Assembly (NCBI GenBank): GCA_048886685.1
Contig: JBHLKM010000013.1
Coordinates: forward strand, 1 to 64,000
Origin: Candidatus Hodarchaeota archaeon
GTDB lineage: Archaea; Asgardarchaeota; Lokiarchaeia; Sigyniarchaeales; SOKP01
Direction: 5' to 3'
Length of the DNA: 64,000 nucleotides
Shown: one piece after another, positions 36,361 through 41,058 of the stretch
Numbering within the stretch: the stretch's first letter is position 1
Layout of the letters: each line of letters opens with the position of its first letter
Notes under the pieces: generated by a model
Told to the model about the DNA's origin: nothing
Database searches by the model: none
Seen by the model: the letters and a program-made list of their open reading frames with translations, nothing else
Translations under genes and position numbers: made by a program

Positions 36361-38418
36361 TTATAGCTCTTGATCTTCTTGTCTTTCATATAATTCTGAA
36401 TGAGGTTCAAGGAAATGATTTTGACACATCGGGCAAGTATTATACTTAGATACCCACCAAACTATGCATAAGTAATGATATGTACTACCACAGAAAGGAC
36501 ATGTTATCACTTTATCTTTAACAAAATCAATAAATTTGTGGCAAACCGTGCATTGTACTTCTGAAGCTGAGATTCCTTTGCTCAATTTTACTCGATTCGC
36601 TAAAATCGTTTCTAATTTTGATAATTCTACCTGATAGAGTCCAAGAGAGTTATTTAAATGACTAATTTTTGAATTTATTTCAGCGATTCTTTCTCTCAAT
36701 TCATTCTCAGTTAACTTTTCAGCAAGGAACGCTGATAATGCAAAATTTAGCGGTAGTTCTTCAAAATTTTCAGTTTGTTCAGAGATTTCAGTGATGGTTG
36801 CAAATAAAAATCCTTCTTTATCAAGTAATTCCTTAAAGCTTTTAAATAGCTTATTTATCAGAAGAGATATAAGAAAGGTTAATTGCTGTCTTTTACGATT
36901 AAAATTTTCTTCCCATAATTTTATTATTTGATAAATATCAATATCTTGACTCTTTTTAGAATCAAGCATTTTATATACTTCATCTTTAATATTTTGAATT
37001 TTTGCTGTATATCGGACCAGAATCTCCCTAATCTGTTTTAATTGAGGAAATTCTTCTTTAATTATTAATGATGTTTCATCTTCATATGATATGATTAGTT
37101 CATTAAGTTCTGAGATTTTTCCCTTGATGAATTTTCTAATATTTACTCTAACTTCTTCATCTTTGACAGTTTGAATGAAGGATAAATATTCATTTTTTCT
37201 ACGATATATTTCAGATGATACATTTCCAAAGATCTTCCTATATGATTCTGTTATATTATCATATGGAATAAGAAAATTTTCTAACATTAGAACCCAATCT
37301 TCGACTTCTTGTATCTTTGAATAAAATCTATCTATTTTTGTATAATAAAAGTTTGCAATCTTCTCGAATTCTTCGGTTTCAGTGTCATCATGGATCTTCT
37401 CTTGGAATTTCTTTTCTAGTCCTAAAATATAGTAATCCACAATTTTCGGTAGGAATATCCTAATTTTCTGGTCTTTTAATGTTTTGAGTTCAATATCTAC
37501 ATTTTTATCCTTTAAATCAAATTCCTCAATTTCTACAACAATATCATGAAATTTTTCCAAAATTAACTCTTTAAGAAGGGGTTTTACAAATTGTTTGAGA
37601 TTTTGAATAATTTCTTTCCTTTCAAGGATGTTTATAAATTCGTCCCCTTGATATTCTTCAATGATCCTATTAAAATTTAGGAGATACGTTAAATCAAAAT
37701 ATAGATTGACCTTTTTTTCATTTTTAGATAAAAAAAATTGATAAAGCTCATCAAAATGAAATGTTAATATAAATTCTTCCTTATCTTTTTTCCGTTTTTT
37801 AATAAATGCTTCATTTAAACTTTTAATAAAAGTGTATACCTCTTTAATCTCATCCCAATCTCCCAATACTGCTGGGATTTCATTTAATTTGAAGTTTAGA
37901 TTTTTATTTTTATTTATTTCAACCCATAAATGTAGTTGATCGTCATAAAGTTTCTGAGTTTCTTTTAATGCAGTTATTATCTTAGACGCAATATCATTAC
38001 TTTGGCGAAGTAGATCGAGTATATTTGATATTGTATTGTTTAAAATTACATTACCATTTTTTATTAAACGTTTTATGTTCGAACAATTTGAATTAAAATT
38101 TTGTAAATTGTTAATTATTTGATTTAATTCCGTTAGAATCCCAGATTTTAAATGATAATAATATTTATTATTAAGTTCTGTTTCAGAATTGATTATATAC
38201 GTATTCAAGAAAGTGGTTATTTCATCTAAATATTTAGAATATGAATCCAATATTGTGGATGATAAATTTAACTTTGTTTCTATGAATTGAGTAATTTCTG
38301 ACTCTTCAACCTTCTCTGCTTTGAACTTTGTTAATATGTCTTTAATCTCAAGAATTTCTTCCTTGGTAAAGATCATTACTTCTGTAGTATCATGGAAAGT
38401 GTTATTAATTAAATTCAT
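36361..38418 (-). CDS. Long helical/coiled-coil protein with C-terminal RING-type finger (candidate E3 ligase)
   Basis: CTVC-x13-CPFC-x4-H-x2-C-x2-WW-x6-CPMC at the C-terminus. Confidence 0.75.
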   Translation of the reverse strand: MNLINNTFHDTTEVMIFTKEEILEIKDILTKFKAEKVEESEITQFIETKLNLSSTILDSYSKYLDEITTFLNTYIINSETELNNKYYYHLKSGILTELNQIINNLQNFNSNCSNIKRLIKNGNVILNNTISNILDLLRQSNDIASKIITALKETQKLYDDQLHLWVEINKNKNLNFKLNEIPAVLGDWDEIKEVYTFIKSLNEAFIKKRKKDKEEFILTFHFDELYQFFLSKNEKKVNLYFDLTYLLNFNRIIEEYQGDEFINILERKEIIQNLKQFVKPLLKELILEKFHDIVVEIEEFDLKDKNVDIELKTLKDQKIRIFLPKIVDYYILGLEKKFQEKIHDDTETEEFEKIANFYYTKIDRFYSKIQEVEDWVLMLENFLIPYDNITESYRKIFGNVSSEIYRRKNEYLSFIQTVKDEEVRVNIRKFIKGKISELNELIISYEDETSLIIKEEFPQLKQIREILVRYTAKIQNIKDEVYKMLDSKKSQDIDIYQIIKLWEENFNRKRQQLTFLISLLINKLFKSFKELLDKEGFLFATITEISEQTENFEELPLNFALSAFLAEKLTENELRERIAEINSKISHLNNSLGLYQVELSKLETILANRVKLSKGISASEVQCTVCHKFIDFVKDKVITCPFCGSTYHYLCIVWWVSKYNTCPMCQNHFLEPHSELYERQEDQEL

Positions 38419-38533: not shown

Positions 38534-39151
38534 TTATTCACCTAATTCTTTAACCTCTAAATACTTTTCTTTTGATCCATCCTTAGTTATCGTCAAAATA
38601 TCAATTCCATTACCAGACATTACATCCCGTGAAATTGAATTCCTTATTGCTTTCTCTACTAATTTTTCACCAGAAGCAACAGTCATATCAAGTTTATATT
38701 CAGCTTCTAAAATACCAATTGACAACAGCATTCCAGTTCCAGTAGTTCCATAATCATCCGGCATTAAACTCCCAATCGCGTCCAGTGTATATAATTCAGG
38801 ACCACCGATATCCATACCCGCAACAACCAAATTTGTATATAGCGGCATCATTTTCCTTGAATATAAATAATTTGATACCATTTTTCCCATGCTTCTAGTA
38901 GAAATTCTCTCCCCAGCATCTAAAAGATATAAATTAGCTTGTGCTCTTAAAATTTTCACAAGAATCTGAAAATCACCAATCAAACCATAAGCTGCCATTC
39001 CAATATATTCTGTTATTTTAAACACTTTTTTTGTGGATTTGTTTGTAACTGTATATCCCCAAGTTGCCCTTCGATCATTTCCAAGAACAACGCCATCTTT
39101 ACATTTGATAGCTACGCCACAAGCGCCAGGAACCATAATTTGCTGAGCCAT
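38534..39151 (-). CDS. psmB: 20S proteasome beta subunit, probably non-catalytic
   Basis: KCKDGVVLGNDRRAT, KKVFKI, RDVMSGNG; the usual G-TTT N-terminus is replaced by PGACG. Confidence 0.92.
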   Translation of the reverse strand: MAQQIMVPGACGVAIKCKDGVVLGNDRRATWGYTVTNKSTKKVFKITEYIGMAAYGLIGDFQILVKILRAQANLYLLDAGERISTRSMGKMVSNYLYSRKMMPLYTNLVVAGMDIGGPELYTLDAIGSLMPDDYGTTGTGMLLSIGILEAEYKLDMTVASGEKLVEKAIRNSISRDVMSGNGIDILTITKDGSKEKYLEVKELGE

Positions 39152-39340
39152 AAAATATTCACTTATAAGTATTGAATTATTATGTTTATTTTGTTATTAT
39201 AAATAAACAGAGCTAATTAAAATTTGTGCTTTAAATTTATAAAATTTAACACTTTACACCCAAACATAATGAACTTTTATTCTTCTTCAACAGCTATTAT
39301 TTTTCATATCACAATTACTAATATGATCTCTAGATTGAAA

Positions 39341-39750
39341 TCAAATTTTACTTCTAAATTCAATTATGATATAATGATTATGATCACACAAATCATCTTA
39401 TTATGTTTAGTAGGGATCGTTTGGTTTAATTAGAAATTTTTTAGTTCTCCTCTAAACCATAAAGAAATAGTGTTTATAGAAATTTTTCTCACTATTACCA
39501 TTTGAATTATTGTGTGTACAAAAAAATTACTTCATATTTTTTGAATGATTTTCCCGTATATGATCACATAATTAACAATAACCCACTTGATTGGGATTAT
39601 CATTTTTAATTAAAAATTTTTTAATTCCCCATTAAATTATAGTAAAACCAATTATAACAACCAATTAACCAACATTGGATTCCGAACCATTGTGATTCTA
39701 AAAAAATTACTTCATATTTTTTCAATGATCAACCATTGCATGATCATGGG
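39341..39750. repeat. Degenerate ungapped 180-bp tandem repeat (about 2.3 units) upstream of the histone gene
   Basis: TGATCA at 39381, 39561 and 39741; 39520-39549 vs 39700-39729 match at 29/30; 39411-39460 vs 39591-39640 match at 36/50 without gaps. Confidence 0.85.
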
Positions 39751-39949
39751 TGATGACTCTTTAATTAAAACCCCAATTTTTTGTCGTGATTTTTTTTTCA
39801 TTTAACTCTTCATAATCTGCTGATTTTGTCAAAACATTTAAATAACTCTTCAAACATTATATTATCTAAGACACTTTAAAAATAACCAACAAAAAAATTA
39901 AAAACTTAAATTTTAAGATTTAAATCTAAAAATTTTGGAGGAATAAAAA

Positions 39950-40168
39950 ATGGCTAAAAAGAAACATTCGTTTGCGTGGTCTCCAATCAGGAGATTAATG
40001 AAACAACAAGGTGCTAGCATTGTGGCTCGCAACGCAGTAGATTTATTGATTGATCATTTAGAGAAGACTGCCACCGCATTAACCGAACAAGCAAGAACCT
40101 TCACCATGCACGCGAACCGCAAGAAGATAACTAAGAATGATCTACTCTTATCCATCAAATATAAGTAA
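39950..40168 (+). CDS. Archaeal histone (HMf-like fold) with short Lys-rich N-terminus
   Basis: PIRRLMK..GA..V...A...L...L...A......HANRKKITKND; GGAGG RBS upstream. Confidence 0.93.
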   Translation: MAKKKHSFAWSPIRRLMKQQGASIVARNAVDLLIDHLEKTATALTEQARTFTMHANRKKITKNDLLLSIKYK

Positions 40169-40263: not shown

Positions 40264-41058
40264 TCATTTAGTAGGATTTAATTTCCAAATTTTAAATGAC
40301 TCAATAATAAAAACTATTGTTCCAAAAATCAAAAAAAACAACAAAAACAAACTCAGTGGTTCTGAAATAAATTTATCACCATGGAGTAGAGCAAGGATAG
40401 AATAGACAATAAAACCCAGAATATAGATTATTAGGTATAGTGAAATTCGAGGGATCACTCGAGTTCCAATGCGTATAAAAAATTTGAGTATCCTTATTTT
40501 GACTTCTTTATTTATTGTATATTTTCCTTCCTCAGGGCTTTTTAATATAACTCCATCATTCAGTAATTTTGTTATTTGATAAGCTACTGTTCCAGATGAT
40601 GAAAAATTCAATGCTTTCTGGATTTCTCTAATTCCAGCATGGTTATGAGTATATATATACCAGTACACTTGAAGTGCTTTGCCTTCTATTGAAGTTTCTG
40701 TTATTTCGGTTTTTGCTTGCTTTATCAGTTTTATTGATTCTTCAGATTCTTGAATGATAGCCCCATAATAAGACTTAGAGAGAAAATGGATAACAAGAAT
40801 CAAAAATCCATAAAGAACAAACAAAATAATAGAGAAAAAGAGAAAAAATTCTATAACACTCTGGTTGTAATCCGTTTGACAATATTGAAATAAAGAAATA
40901 ATTGTTATTATCCCATGAAAAATAGTCAAATAATAAAAAATTCTTTTGAGATAGAACATTACAAATCTTTTAACACGTAAAATTTTAGATCTAGGCTCGA
41001 AAAATGCACTAAGTTTTTCATCTGGAATCTTAGTTTTTTTGGATGTCATAATTACCAA
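40264..41058 (-). CDS. Membrane-embedded winged-helix transcription regulator
   Basis: TM-TM, then wHTH (VYWYI...GIREIQKALNFSSSGTVAYQITKLLNDG...GKY), then TM-TM. Confidence 0.75.
   Translation of the reverse strand: MVIMTSKKTKIPDEKLSAFFEPRSKILRVKRFVMFYLKRIFYYLTIFHGIITIISLFQYCQTDYNQSVIEFFLFFSIILFVLYGFLILVIHFLSKSYYGAIIQESEESIKLIKQAKTEITETSIEGKALQVYWYIYTHNHAGIREIQKALNFSSSGTVAYQITKLLNDGVILKSPEEGKYTINKEVKIRILKFFIRIGTRVIPRISLYLIIYILGFIVYSILALLHGDKFISEPLSLFLLFFLIFGTIVFIIESFKIWKLNPTK

What the first reader, a model, noticed from the sequence alone, without database searches (positions are those of the whole stretch)
39341..39750. Exact 180-bp-period degenerate tandem repeat upstream of the histone gene
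Seen: the about 800-bp non-coding gap between the divergent proteasome-beta and histone genes holds about 2.3 diverged copies of a unit that stays in ungapped 180-bp register. TGATCA occurs at 39381/39561/39741; the AAAAAAATTACTTCATATTTTTT block occurs at 39520 and 39700; a GGGAT...TTTAATTA.AAATTTTTTA.TTC.CC block occurs near 39413 and 39593. Known: archaeal histone dimers wrap DNA in steps of about 30 bp (180 = 6 x 30), and eukaryotic nucleosome repeats and centromeric satellites are about 170-180 bp. Inference: length conservation despite sequence drift suggests a chromatin-positioning or histone-autoregulatory array, or a phased binding-site array such as an origin or segregation locus.
Basis: partly seen in the sequence, partly recalled or inferred. 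Interest (0 to 1): 0.72.

Follow-up and report, generated by a model that had tools for sequence, protein, structure and literature searches.

The report
Phase-locked 180-bp modules upstream of histone
Two ancient 180-base copies of a non-coding DNA module sit upstream of a histone gene in a group of uncultured Asgard (Loki-type) archaea and have kept their exact length and spacing across more than 20 species, so they most likely form a fixed-spacing row of protein-binding sites that controls that gene; the binding protein and the function are untested.

Summary
The 798-bp psmB/histone spacer holds exactly two full 180-bp units, A at 39376-39555 and B at 39556-39735, followed by a closing ATGATCA box at 39740. 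It is 2.0 copies, not 2.3. The offset-180 match scores about 10 sd above dinucleotide shuffles.

The units are unique in the 4.4-Mb genome. The 680-bp core (39270-39949) is found in every same-genus genome whose assembly spans it (about 24 species). It is 66-90% identical, against 42-62% at psmB third codon positions. It has 1.2 gap columns per 100, against 30.8 in the adjoining psmB-proximal 118 bp. All 38 units measured are 180-181 bp.

What it is not:
- Coding: there is no third-position excess and stops are scattered.
- Structured RNA: no Rfam hit and no covariation.
- A mobile element.
- Near any orc1/cdc6 gene.

When insertions split the spacer, the core stays with the histone gene. Two lineages carry only one unit.

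The best reading, at moderate confidence, is a DNA-level, spacing-constrained array of binding sites: TATGATCA boxes 180 bp apart, A5T6 palindromes and A/T-tract blocks. It would act as a far-upstream control or architectural region of this histone gene. A histone-positioning role is possible but untested, and an origin role is unsupported. First readers of this scan noted the same element in two other genomes.

The parts
38534..39151 (-). Proteasome beta-subunit gene (psmB), divergent from the histone gene. It is the left boundary of the spacer.
   Evidence: ORF. Pfam Proteasome, E 1.7e-49. Orthologues are 76-95% identical.
39152..39269 (.). psmB-proximal part of the spacer. It is rich in indels, includes a conserved psmB promoter-like block (about 39209-39245, with a TATA-like hit on the minus strand at 39211-39228), and is the start of a 39237-39305 zone hit by independent insertions.
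   Evidence: 30.8 gap columns per 100. Alignment. PWM hit. Insertions: 161 bp in G017 after 39236; 1.9 kb in G023 near 39305; multi-kb in G040.
39270..39949 (.). Conserved, nearly indel-free 680-bp non-coding core that stays attached to the histone gene.
   Evidence: Length is 678-682 bp in 17 complete orthologues. Identity to G000 is 0.66-0.90, against 0.42-0.62 at psmB third codon positions. 1.2 gap columns per 100. In G040 the core stays with the histone gene after an insertion.
39322..39329 (+). Box 0, TATGATCT: a weaker ATGATC-type box 57 bp before box 1.
   Evidence: Present as TATGATCT in 9 of 24 species, with related forms in others. The 57-bp distance to box 1 is constant.
39376..39555 (+). 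Unit A of the 180-bp module.
   Evidence: nhmmer E 4.1e-31. 180-181 bp in all species.
39556..39735 (+). Unit B of the 180-bp module.
   Evidence: nhmmer E 8.4e-36. A and B are 62% identical in this genome and 55-69% in others.
39380..39386 (+). Box 1, (T)ATGATCA, at the start of unit A.
   Evidence: GATC core present in 24 of 24 species; TATGATCA in 17 of 24.
39560..39566 (+). Box 2, (T)ATGATCA, at the start of unit B, 180 bp after box 1.
   Evidence: TATGATCA in 20 of 24 species; GATC in 24 of 24. Distance to box 1 is 180/181.
39725..39746 (+). Double box 3a/3: ATGATCA, 8 nt, ATGATCA. The second box lies 180 bp after box 2 and closes the array. The two palindromes form the only conserved hairpin-capable element.
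   Evidence: TGATCA is present in 24 of 24 species at both sites and the spacing of 15 is constant. It gives the only RNAalifold signal. This is among the best conserved 10-bp windows of the core (0.96).
39413..39454 (.). Block 2 of unit A: GGGAT, then a near-palindromic A5T6 element (39427-39446), then TTCnCC.
   Evidence: the repeat finder family D2. Majority frequency 0.80-0.92. Species variants.
39593..39634 (.). Block 2 of unit B. It holds a 19-bp near-perfect palindrome at 39608-39626, and a weak TATA-like PWM hit on the plus strand at 39598-39615.
   Evidence: the 19-mer occurs only twice in the genome. PWM score 8.0, no better than the shuffle expectation.
39504..39559 (.). Block 3 of unit A: an A7 tract, TTACTTCAT, a T6 tract, then ATGAT.
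   Evidence: the repeat finder family D1, 63 nt at 78% identity, spacing 180. The 39520 and 39700 blocks match at 20 of 20.
39684..39739 (.). Block 3 of unit B.
39777..39798 (+). Invariant T6-GTCGTGA-T9 element between the array and the histone core promoter. It looks like an oligo-T terminator on the plus strand, or an upstream promoter element.
   Evidence: Majority frequency 0.93-0.95. Variants. Reading it as a terminator is inference from the known oligo-T termination of archaeal RNA polymerase.
39837..39844 (+). Histone core promoter TATA box, TTTAAATA.
   Evidence: AACATTTAAATAAC is present in 20 of 24 species. Best PWM hit in the spacer, 9.2. The window is 0.94-0.98 conserved.
39937..39941 (+). 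Shine-Dalgarno GGAGG of the histone gene.
   Evidence: Sequence. Conserved in the alignment.
39950..40168 (+). Archaeal histone gene (72 aa), the gene the array travels with.
   Evidence: Pfam CBFD_NFYB_HMF, E 1.6e-8. Orthologues are 81-100% identical, most 93-100%. It is one of 5 paralogues, and the only one with unit-like DNA upstream.

Best explanation
The two 180-bp units are DNA-level modules of a far-upstream control or architectural region belonging to this histone gene.

Anatomy of a module:
- It opens with an oriented (T)ATGATCA box whose core is the palindrome TGATCA.
- About 33 bp later comes GGGAT, followed by an A5T6 near-palindrome.
- About 125-165 bp in comes an A-tract/T-tract block.
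- The next ATGATCA box follows.

The boxes therefore lie at 0, 180 and 360 bp, about 17 helical turns apart and on one face of the helix. The last one is doubled at a 15-bp offset, about 90 bp upstream of the histone TATA box.

Proposed mechanism (inferred, not shown): a sequence-specific, probably dimeric, DNA-binding protein occupies the boxes. The intrinsically stiff or bent A/T-tract blocks and the fixed spacing let the bound proteins contact each other, by looping or wrapping, to form one nucleoprotein complex that sets the output of the histone promoter.

Shown: the repeat, its uniqueness, its age, its purifying selection, its length constraint, its non-coding and non-structured-RNA nature, and its linkage to the histone gene.

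Inferred: that proteins bind it, which proteins, and what the effect on transcription is.
For: 1. The repeat is real and unique: z about 10 against shuffles, and a profile finds only these two copies in 4.4 Mb.
2. It is constrained. The core is 66-90% identical where psmB third codon positions are 42-62%. Conserved blocks have majority frequency 0.85, intra-unit spacers 0.74-0.79, and psmB third positions 0.65.
3. Spacing is under selection. Units are 180-181 bp in 38 of 38 cases, even though aligning A with B needs three single-base gaps, so the indels compensate. Gap density is 0.6-1.2 per 100 columns against 30.8 in the adjoining DNA. Box distances of 57, 180/181, 165/166 and 15 are constant in 24 species.
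4. The TGATCA or GATC cores of the four boxes are kept in 24 of 24 species. Five of the 13 ATGATCA matches in the 64-kb window (both strands counted) fall within 368 bp here, four of them on the plus strand.
5. It is not coding. Codon-position variability is 0.185/0.146/0.150, against 0.118/0.057/0.35 in psmB, and stops are scattered.
6. It is not structured RNA. Rfam finds nothing, consensus folding energy is about 0, and there are no covarying helices. T runs of 5 or more occur on both strands every 90 bp or less, which argues against long transcripts.
7. It belongs to the histone gene. In G040 a multi-kb insertion separates psmB from the intact core plus histone gene. Three independent insertions all fall at 39305 or before, and none inside the array.
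8. It is modular. One-unit versions exist in two lineages.
Against: - No binding protein is identified, and there are no expression data for this uncultured genus.
- Known archaeal regulators act at or next to the core promoter, for example the aCcr1-box between TATA and start codon (PMC9976878) and the CCTF1 site within the pan promoter (PMC13736083). Boxes 90-460 bp upstream would be unusual.
- Conservation is fairly even across the units (spacers 0.74-0.79) and not strictly confined to short sites. That also fits a transcribed element.
- The TATGATCA motif is not enriched genome-wide: 258 observed against 358 expected. No regulon supports a dedicated factor.
- The helical-phase periodicity is weak. 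Nine percent of shuffles reach the observed peak, and the best periods are harmonics of 180.
Confidence: 0.45

Rival explanations
1. Each unit is a small, unstructured RNA gene, that is, a tandem pair of promoter-transcript-terminator modules. An AT-rich TATA-like element in block 2 would drive an RNA of about 80 nt that ends at the T6 run of block 3. The T6-GTCGTGA-T9 element would insulate the histone promoter from read-through.
For: - There is a weak TATA-like PWM hit at 39598-39615 on the plus strand, comparable to the psmB promoter hit.
- T6 runs lie about 100 bp downstream in each unit, and there is an invariant T9 at 39790-39798.
- Conservation is fairly even across the unit.
- The scan has found conserved sRNA genes in Lokiarchaeia before (this is a lead only).
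Against: - PWM hits in the spacer (3) equal the shuffle expectation (3.1 +/- 1.6), and unit A has no hit.
- In most species the TATA-like core reads TTTCAATTA.
- There is no conserved fold, no covariation and no Rfam family.
- The presumed transcript body is the least conserved part of the unit.
- An RNA gene does not by itself explain why the distance between the ATGATCA boxes is held at exactly 180.
Confidence: 0.2
2. The array is a sequence-programmed positioning site for histone oligomers, with 180 bp equal to six dimers or two superhelical turns. Histone occupancy upstream of its own promoter would feed back on histone synthesis.
For: - 180 is a multiple of the 30 bp wrapped per archaeal histone dimer (PMC11894787).
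- Length is strictly conserved.
- The array is linked to a histone gene and not to psmB.
- There is a 10.6-bp G/C periodicity of power 6.8, with 17 x 10.6 = 180.
Against: - The periodicity is not significant once all periods are considered (9% of shuffles), and the repeat itself favours harmonics of 180.
- The DNA is 22% GC with A7, T6 and T9 tracts. By general knowledge, histone wrapping favours more GC-rich, flexible DNA, and archaeal promoter regions tend to be chromatin-free (PMC11894787).
- The four other histone paralogues have no such units.
- Strongly conserved sequence-specific boxes (TGATCA in 24 of 24 species) are not needed for histone wrapping.
Confidence: 0.12
3. The array is a replication origin, or a chromosome segregation or architecture site: an ORB-like or centromere-like array.
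For: - It is a unique, AT-rich, conserved intergenic region with repeats and palindromes between divergent genes.
- Many assemblies break here.
Against: - The three Orc1/Cdc6 genes lie on contigs C15, C2 and C1, not on the 146-kb contig C13.
- There is no cumulative GC-skew turning point at 39.5 kb.
- The orc1-upstream spacer on C15 is itself highly conserved and is the better origin candidate. The one motif it shares with this spacer in G000 is not conserved in relatives.
- The repeats are direct, not inverted around an unwinding element.
- G005 and G014 lack the RING-psmB-spacer-histone block, and G041 lacks the spacer and histone gene although it has psmB. That is unlikely for an essential origin.
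Confidence: 0.06
4. It is the remnant of a gene, or a live gene, for a 60-residue-repeat protein on the minus strand.
For: - 180 bp equals 60 codons.
- One minus-strand frame stays open for up to 94 codons in some species and gives a protein-like, His/Cys/Tyr-rich translation that repeats between the units.
- There is a weak period-3 signal in the conservation profile, power 81 against a median of 11.
Against: - There is no third-position excess, even in the clade with the longest open frames: 0.106/0.071/0.089.
- There are many stops in G000 and four other species, plus a 1-nt indel, and no conserved start codon.
- The frame would run through the histone TATA box.
- A decaying pseudogene would not hold 66-90% identity and a fixed length across the genus.
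Confidence: 0.04

Closest known systems
Archaeal transcription-factor operators made of short palindromic boxes, for example the aCcr1-box of Sulfolobales cdvA promoters (PMC9976878) and the AT-rich palindromic CCTF1 site in the pan promoter (PMC13736083)
   Same: Short palindromic or near-palindromic boxes, present in more than one copy, conserved at equivalent positions across related species, next to a gene of chromosome or cell-cycle biology.
   Different: The known boxes lie within the core promoter or 5' UTR and are one or two sites tens of bp apart. Here the boxes lie 90-460 bp upstream of the TATA box, 180 bp apart, and are embedded in 180-bp modules that are conserved as wholes. No cognate factor is known, and the motif (TATGATCA) is different.
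Cooperative, spacing-dependent operator arrays that loop or wrap DNA, such as the bacterial lac, gal, ara and deo operators and Lrp-family nucleoprotein complexes (named from general knowledge)
   Same: Function depends on integral helical-turn spacing between sites, which would explain selection on length rather than on spacer sequence.
   Different: These are mostly bacterial, with no sequence relationship. The looping or wrapping here is inferred from spacing conservation only.
Archaeal histone positioning and hypernucleosomes, 30 bp per dimer (reviewed in PMC11894787 and PMC6136690)
   Same: The unit length is a multiple of 30 bp and the array lies next to a histone gene.
   Different: No natural, sequence-programmed, repeated positioning array of this kind came up in the three literature searches run here. 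Composition (22% GC, long A/T tracts) and sequence-specific boxes point away from simple wrapping.
Archaeal oriC with ORB or mini-ORB repeats next to orc1/cdc6
   Same: An AT-rich, conserved, repeat-bearing intergenic region.
   Different: It is not next to orc1/cdc6, the repeats are direct 180-bp modules rather than inverted 20-35-bp ORBs around an unwinding element, and it shares no conserved motif with the genus's orc1-upstream spacer.

Membership tests
Tandem repeat or satellite | Two or more head-to-tail copies of one unit, more alike than chance allows | tested here: met
   Two adjacent 180-bp units. The diagonal score is 28.5 against 12.9 +/- 1.5 in shuffles. Profile E values are 4e-31 and 8e-36. 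TRF itself does not call the repeat, because the copies are only 62% identical.
Tandem repeat or satellite | Copy number varies, or the array is homogenised by concerted evolution | tested here: not met
   The A copies of different species resemble each other more than they resemble their own B copy: A/B identity is 55-69% within a species and the consensus sequences are distinct. The two-unit state is fixed in about 24 species, and only two lineages have one unit.
Protein-coding repeat (60-aa units) | An open frame kept across species, with an excess of third-position variation | tested here: not met
   Stops are scattered in all frames. Variability by codon position is 0.185/0.146/0.150, against 0.118/0.057/0.35 in psmB.
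Structured non-coding RNA | A match to a known family, or a conserved secondary structure with compensatory changes | tested here: not met
   The best Rfam E value is 4.1. The RNAalifold energy is about 0, apart from the TGATCA/TGATCA hairpin. The helix scan finds only homopolymer and palindrome pairings.
Mobile element or MITE | Several dispersed copies in the genome | tested here: not met
   blastn and nhmmer against the whole genome find no other copy.
Archaeal replication origin (oriC) | Lies next to an orc1/cdc6 (or whiP) initiator gene | tested here: not met
   Cdc6_C hits occur only on C15, C2 and C1, and the window lies on C13. In G021 and G002 they also lie elsewhere.
Archaeal replication origin (oriC) | ORB-type repeats, typically inverted around an AT-rich unwinding element and shared between the origins of one genome | tested here: not met
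   The repeats are direct. The only motif shared with the orc1-upstream spacer is not conserved in relatives.
Archaeal replication origin (oriC) | A strand-composition (GC-skew) switch at the locus | tested here: inconclusive
   There is no turning point on the 146-kb contig. The one '1-contig' relative sampled (G021) is an N-joined scaffold, so no chromosome-scale skew could be read.
Promoter-proximal archaeal TF operator | Short conserved palindromic box or boxes | tested here: met
   The TGATCA or GATC cores are kept in 24 of 24 species at four positions.
Promoter-proximal archaeal TF operator | Overlaps or directly abuts BRE/TATA/TSS | tested here: not met
   The nearest box ends at 39746 and the TATA box lies at 39837-39844. 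The others are 270 and 450 bp upstream.
Histone (hypernucleosome) positioning array | Unit length is a multiple of 30 bp | tested here: met
   180-181 bp in 38 of 38 units. This is arithmetic agreement only.
Histone (hypernucleosome) positioning array | Dinucleotide or G/C periodicity of about 10 bp that favours wrapping | tested here: inconclusive
   The peak at 10.6 bp has power 6.8, and 9% of shuffles reach it when all periods are considered. It is also a harmonic of the repeat.
Histone (hypernucleosome) positioning array | Histone footprints in register with the units | not testable with these tools
   This needs MNase or cryo-EM on reconstituted complexes.

The most novel reading that the evidence does not exclude
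The array is a sequence-programmed chromatin or architectural device of an Asgard archaeon. Three TATGATCA boxes held exactly 17 helical turns (six histone-dimer footprints) apart would nucleate or bound a defined histone-factor complex far upstream of a histone gene. [quoted passage not shown]
Probability: 0.12. Interest if true: 0.85.

Novelty: new variant of a known kind. Interest (0 to 1): 0.55.

Why it matters
Archaeal promoters are compact, and known regulators act at the core promoter. A control region of more than 450 bp, free of indels, built from two spacing-locked 180-bp modules and kept for the life of a genus would be an unusual regulatory architecture for an archaeon. It sits on a histone gene in the lineage closest to eukaryotes, where the origin of chromatin-based regulation is an open question.

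The element gives a concrete, short and synthesisable substrate for testing. The 798-bp spacer can be combined with the 72-aa histone and candidate DNA-binding proteins from the same genomes. That would show whether Asgard chromatin proteins read spacing. Natural one-unit and two-unit variants are available as controls.

If it turns out to be only a pair of small RNA genes or an ordinary operator array, it is a modest annotation gain for uncultured Lokiarchaeia.

Tried and rejected
- **Tandem Repeats Finder at minimum score 30:** does not call the repeat because the copies are too diverged.
- **Rfam at E up to 10:** only chance-level hits, SNORD70 at E 4.1 and a miRNA at E 6.8.
- **Coding test on the minus-strand open frame:** rejected.
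- **RNAalifold windows and a helix/covariation scan:** nothing beyond homopolymer and TGATCA pairings. The column-shuffle control there is weak because it destroys homopolymer runs.
- **Third partial copy:** not supported.
- **Dispersed copies, or unit-like DNA upstream of the four histone paralogues:** none.
- **Homologous spacer upstream of the orthologous histone in four genomes from three other genera:** none. psmB is not the neighbour there either.
- **GC skew:** uninformative on the contig. The sampled '1-contig' relative G021 proved to be an N-joined scaffold, so 40 fetched windows gave nothing.
- **ORB link:** the pattern AATTC.C.ATTAAAT occurs three times in the genome, once upstream of orc1. 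I derived it post hoc and it is not conserved in orthologous orc1 spacers, so I dropped it.
- **Promoter PWM built from tRNA upstreams:** aragorn found only 14 tRNAs, so the PWM carries little information. It recovers the histone and psmB promoters but is no better than shuffles overall.
- **10.6-bp periodicity:** the multi-species z-scores are inflated by shared ancestry. The single-sequence test is weak.
- **Downstream wHTH membrane protein (40264-41058) as a candidate binder:** not syntenic in any relative.
- **Two ORFs inserted in G023:** no Pfam match.
- **Literature searches for Asgard origins, Asgard histone promoters and TGATCA-binding archaeal factors:** no description of this element was found.
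Full report
**Setting.** The window is contig C13 (146 kb) of a 4.4-Mb, 31% GC assembly. Relatives found through psmB are MAGs labelled Promethearchaeota or Promethearchaeia, that is, Asgard or Loki-type archaea. The finding lies in a 798-bp, 22% GC spacer. On its left is a proteasome beta-subunit gene (38534-39151, minus strand; Pfam E 1.7e-49). On its right is a 72-aa archaeal histone gene (39950-40168, plus strand; CBFD_NFYB_HMF E 1.6e-8). A fast-evolving RING-finger protein gene follows psmB.

- Offset 180 gives the highest self-identity of all offsets from 1 to 399.
- The best ungapped diagonal scores 28.5, against 12.9 +/- 1.5 (maximum 18) in 100 dinucleotide-preserving shuffles.
- The repeat finder reports two families at spacing exactly 180, of 63 nt at 78% and 37 nt at 81%.
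- Tandem Repeats Finder misses the repeat because the copies are only 62% identical overall.

A profile built from 38 units finds exactly two copies in the whole genome: 39376-39555 (E 4e-31) and 39556-39735 (E 8e-36). The next hit has E 0.6. The DNA before 39380 matches the unit's 3' end at only 35-42%, which is background for this composition. The array is therefore 2.0 units closed by a third ATGATCA box at 39740. An extra box sits 15 bp earlier, at 39725.

**Conservation.**
- All 23 same-genus genomes searched had a match at E <= 0.01, and 19 had a strong one, including most or all of the 798 bp at 70-90% identity.
- Further MAGs from genome contigs add more copies.
- In 17 complete orthologues the 680-bp core (39270-39949) is 678-682 bp long. 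A 19-species alignment has only 7 gap columns.
- Identity to this genome is 0.66-0.90. Third codon positions of the adjacent psmB are 0.42-0.62 identical in the same genomes.
- Majority-base frequency is 0.85 in the conserved blocks, 0.74-0.79 in the spacers inside the units, and 0.65 at psmB third positions.

The adjoining psmB-proximal 118 bp serves as an internal control. It has 30.8 gap columns per 100, against 1.2 in the core and 0.6 in the units. Every one of 38 units is 180 or 181 bp. This holds even though A and B are only 55-69% identical within a species, and aligning A with B needs three single-base gaps, so the indels compensate. In 24 species the ATGATC boxes keep distances of 57, 180/181, 165/166 and 15 bp, and the TGATCA or GATC cores of the four main boxes are present in 24 of 24. 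Cross-species blastn also recovers the off-diagonal match of copy B to copy A in nearly every species.

The duplication is therefore old, both copies are maintained, and length is under selection.

**What it is not.**
- *Coding.* One minus-strand frame is open for up to 94 codons in some species and reads like a His/Cys/Tyr-rich repeat. It has many stops in this genome and four others, a 1-nt indel and no conserved start. It shows no third-position excess: 0.185/0.146/0.150 overall and 0.106/0.071/0.089 in the clade with the longest frames, against 0.118/0.057/0.35 for psmB.
- *Structured RNA.* Rfam gives only chance-level hits. Consensus folding energies are about zero on both strands, apart from the hairpin that the two TGATCA palindromes at 39725 and 39740 can form. 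A helix and covariation scan finds only homopolymer and palindrome pairings. Runs of five or more T occur on both strands at least every 90 bp. Given oligo-T termination by archaeal RNA polymerase (general knowledge), this argues against long transcripts.
- *Mobile.* There are no other copies.

**Origin test.**
- The three Orc1/Cdc6 genes lie on other contigs, and they are also unlinked in G021 and G002.
- The contig shows no skew turning point at the locus.
- A chromosome-scale skew test failed because the '1-contig' relative is an N-joined scaffold.
- The 328-bp spacer upstream of the best orc1 gene (C15) is itself 77-96% identical across 16 species and is the better origin candidate.
- The one motif it shares with this spacer in G000 was found post hoc and is not conserved in relatives.
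- G005 and G014 lack the whole RING-psmB-spacer-histone block. G041 has psmB but lacks the spacer and histone gene.

**Which gene does the array serve?** Three independent insertions hit only the zone 39237-39305:
- 161 bp in G017;
- a 1.9-kb two-ORF insert in G023;
- a multi-kb insert in G040, where the intact core (from 39272) remains attached to the histone gene while psmB-RING lies on another contig with different upstream genes.

The proximal 170 bp (T6-GTCGTGA-T9, TATA box TTTAAATA at 39837-39844, 5' leader, GGAGG) resembles the promoter region of one histone paralogue, at 69% over 146 bp. None of the four paralogues has unit-like DNA. Histone orthologues in four genomes from three other genera of the order (66-71% identical) have neither psmB nor a homologous spacer upstream. 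The units are therefore a genus-specific add-on upstream of this one histone gene.

**Copy-number variants.** One long-branch MAG (L074) has a single unit. It is mostly A-like with a B-like 3' end, and its spacer is 624 bp. A well-supported clade (L056, L064, L075 and relatives) has one recognisable, more diverged unit. The two-unit form occurs in both major groups of the psmB tree, whose root is unknown. I cannot say whether one unit is ancestral or a deletion.

**Anatomy and likely mechanism.** Each module contains, in order:
- an oriented (T)ATGATCA box;
- GGGAT at +33;
- an A5T6 near-palindrome at about +47 to +66 (in unit B, a 19-mer that occurs only twice in the genome);
- TTCnCCATTAAAT;
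- a less conserved stretch;
- an A7...TTCAT...T6 block at +125 to +165;
- an ATGAT(Y) half-box 14-15 bp before the next full box.

Boxes at 0, 180 and 360 bp lie about 17 helical turns apart, so they face the same side of the helix. Constraint on spacing together with conserved sequence-specific boxes is what one expects of a cooperative nucleoprotein complex, formed by looping or wrapping. I therefore favour a DNA-level, spacing-dependent binding array that controls the histone promoter, with confidence 0.45. What is shown and what is inferred is set out under the best explanation.

**Rivals.**
- *A tandem pair of short unstructured sRNA genes (0.20).* A weak TATA-like hit at 39598-39615 and downstream T runs fit. 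However, the PWM is no better than shuffles, unit A lacks a hit, and an RNA gene does not explain the box spacing.
- *A histone-positioning or autoregulatory array (0.12).* 180 = 6 x 30 (PMC11894787) and there is a weak 10.6-bp G/C periodicity. Against this, the DNA has very low GC, carries long A/T tracts and has sequence-specific boxes.
- *An origin or segregation site (0.06).*
- *A coding remnant (0.04).*

**Comparison with known systems.** The nearest described things are archaeal operators made of short palindromic boxes, namely the aCcr1-box and the CCTF1 site (PMC9976878 and PMC13736083). Those sit within the core promoter or 5' UTR. These boxes lie 90-460 bp upstream and are embedded in conserved 180-bp modules. 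Three literature searches found no description of this element. First readers of this scan noted the same 180-bp duplication in two other genomes. That agrees with my cross-species result but is not independent evidence of function.

**Verdict.** It is a new, lineage-specific variant of an upstream control or architectural array, of moderate to good interest because of its spacing lock, its size and its host lineage. Its function is untested.

Noticed in passing
window 39237-39305 (G017 = L010; G023 = L023:1647-3570; G040 = L139 and L053): This is an insertion hot spot in the psmB-proximal part of the spacer. G017 has a 161-bp insert. G023 has a 1.9-kb insert with two ORFs (256 and 318 aa) that have no Pfam match. 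G040 has a multi-kb insert containing an LRR-protein gene. All three leave the array and the histone gene intact.
   Followed up: partly
G000:C15:36841-37168 (L116, L118): The 328-bp spacer upstream of the best Orc1/Cdc6 gene (C15:37169-38476) is 77-96% identical across 16 species, with long invariant runs. It is a good candidate for the chromosomal replication origin of this genus.
   Followed up: partly
the spacer in relatives: G003 (10-N gap), G007, G008, G009, G013, G018, L049, L050, L055, L057, L069: An unusually large share of assemblies end or are gapped inside this spacer. The cause could be very low GC, the repeat, or strain-level structural variation.
   Followed up: no
window 39600-39875, minus strand: This frame gives a protein-like His/Cys/Tyr-rich translation, open for up to 94 codons in some species but without any coding signature. 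A weak period-3 signal in the conservation profile (power 81 against a median of 11) remains unexplained.
   Followed up: yes
window 36361-38418: The 685-aa RING-finger protein next to psmB is only 36-84% identical between species in which the non-coding spacer DNA is 66-90% identical. The gene evolves much faster than the spacer. The RING-psmB-spacer-histone order is conserved.
   Followed up: partly
window 40264-41058: This is a 264-aa predicted membrane protein with a central winged-helix-like segment (weak LexA_DNA_bind hit, E 0.007). It lies downstream of the histone gene and is not found at this position in any relative.
   Followed up: partly
G000:C6:68732, C27:21587, C3:174754, C6:208419: These are four further histone paralogues (44-56% identical). 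All have long ORF-free upstream regions (about 310 to over 1200 bp) and GGAGG ribosome-binding sites.
   Followed up: partly
G021:C1: This genome is listed as one contig of 2.27 Mb, but it is a scaffold joined by runs of 100 N. It cannot be used for chromosome-scale skew or gene-order arguments.
   Followed up: yes
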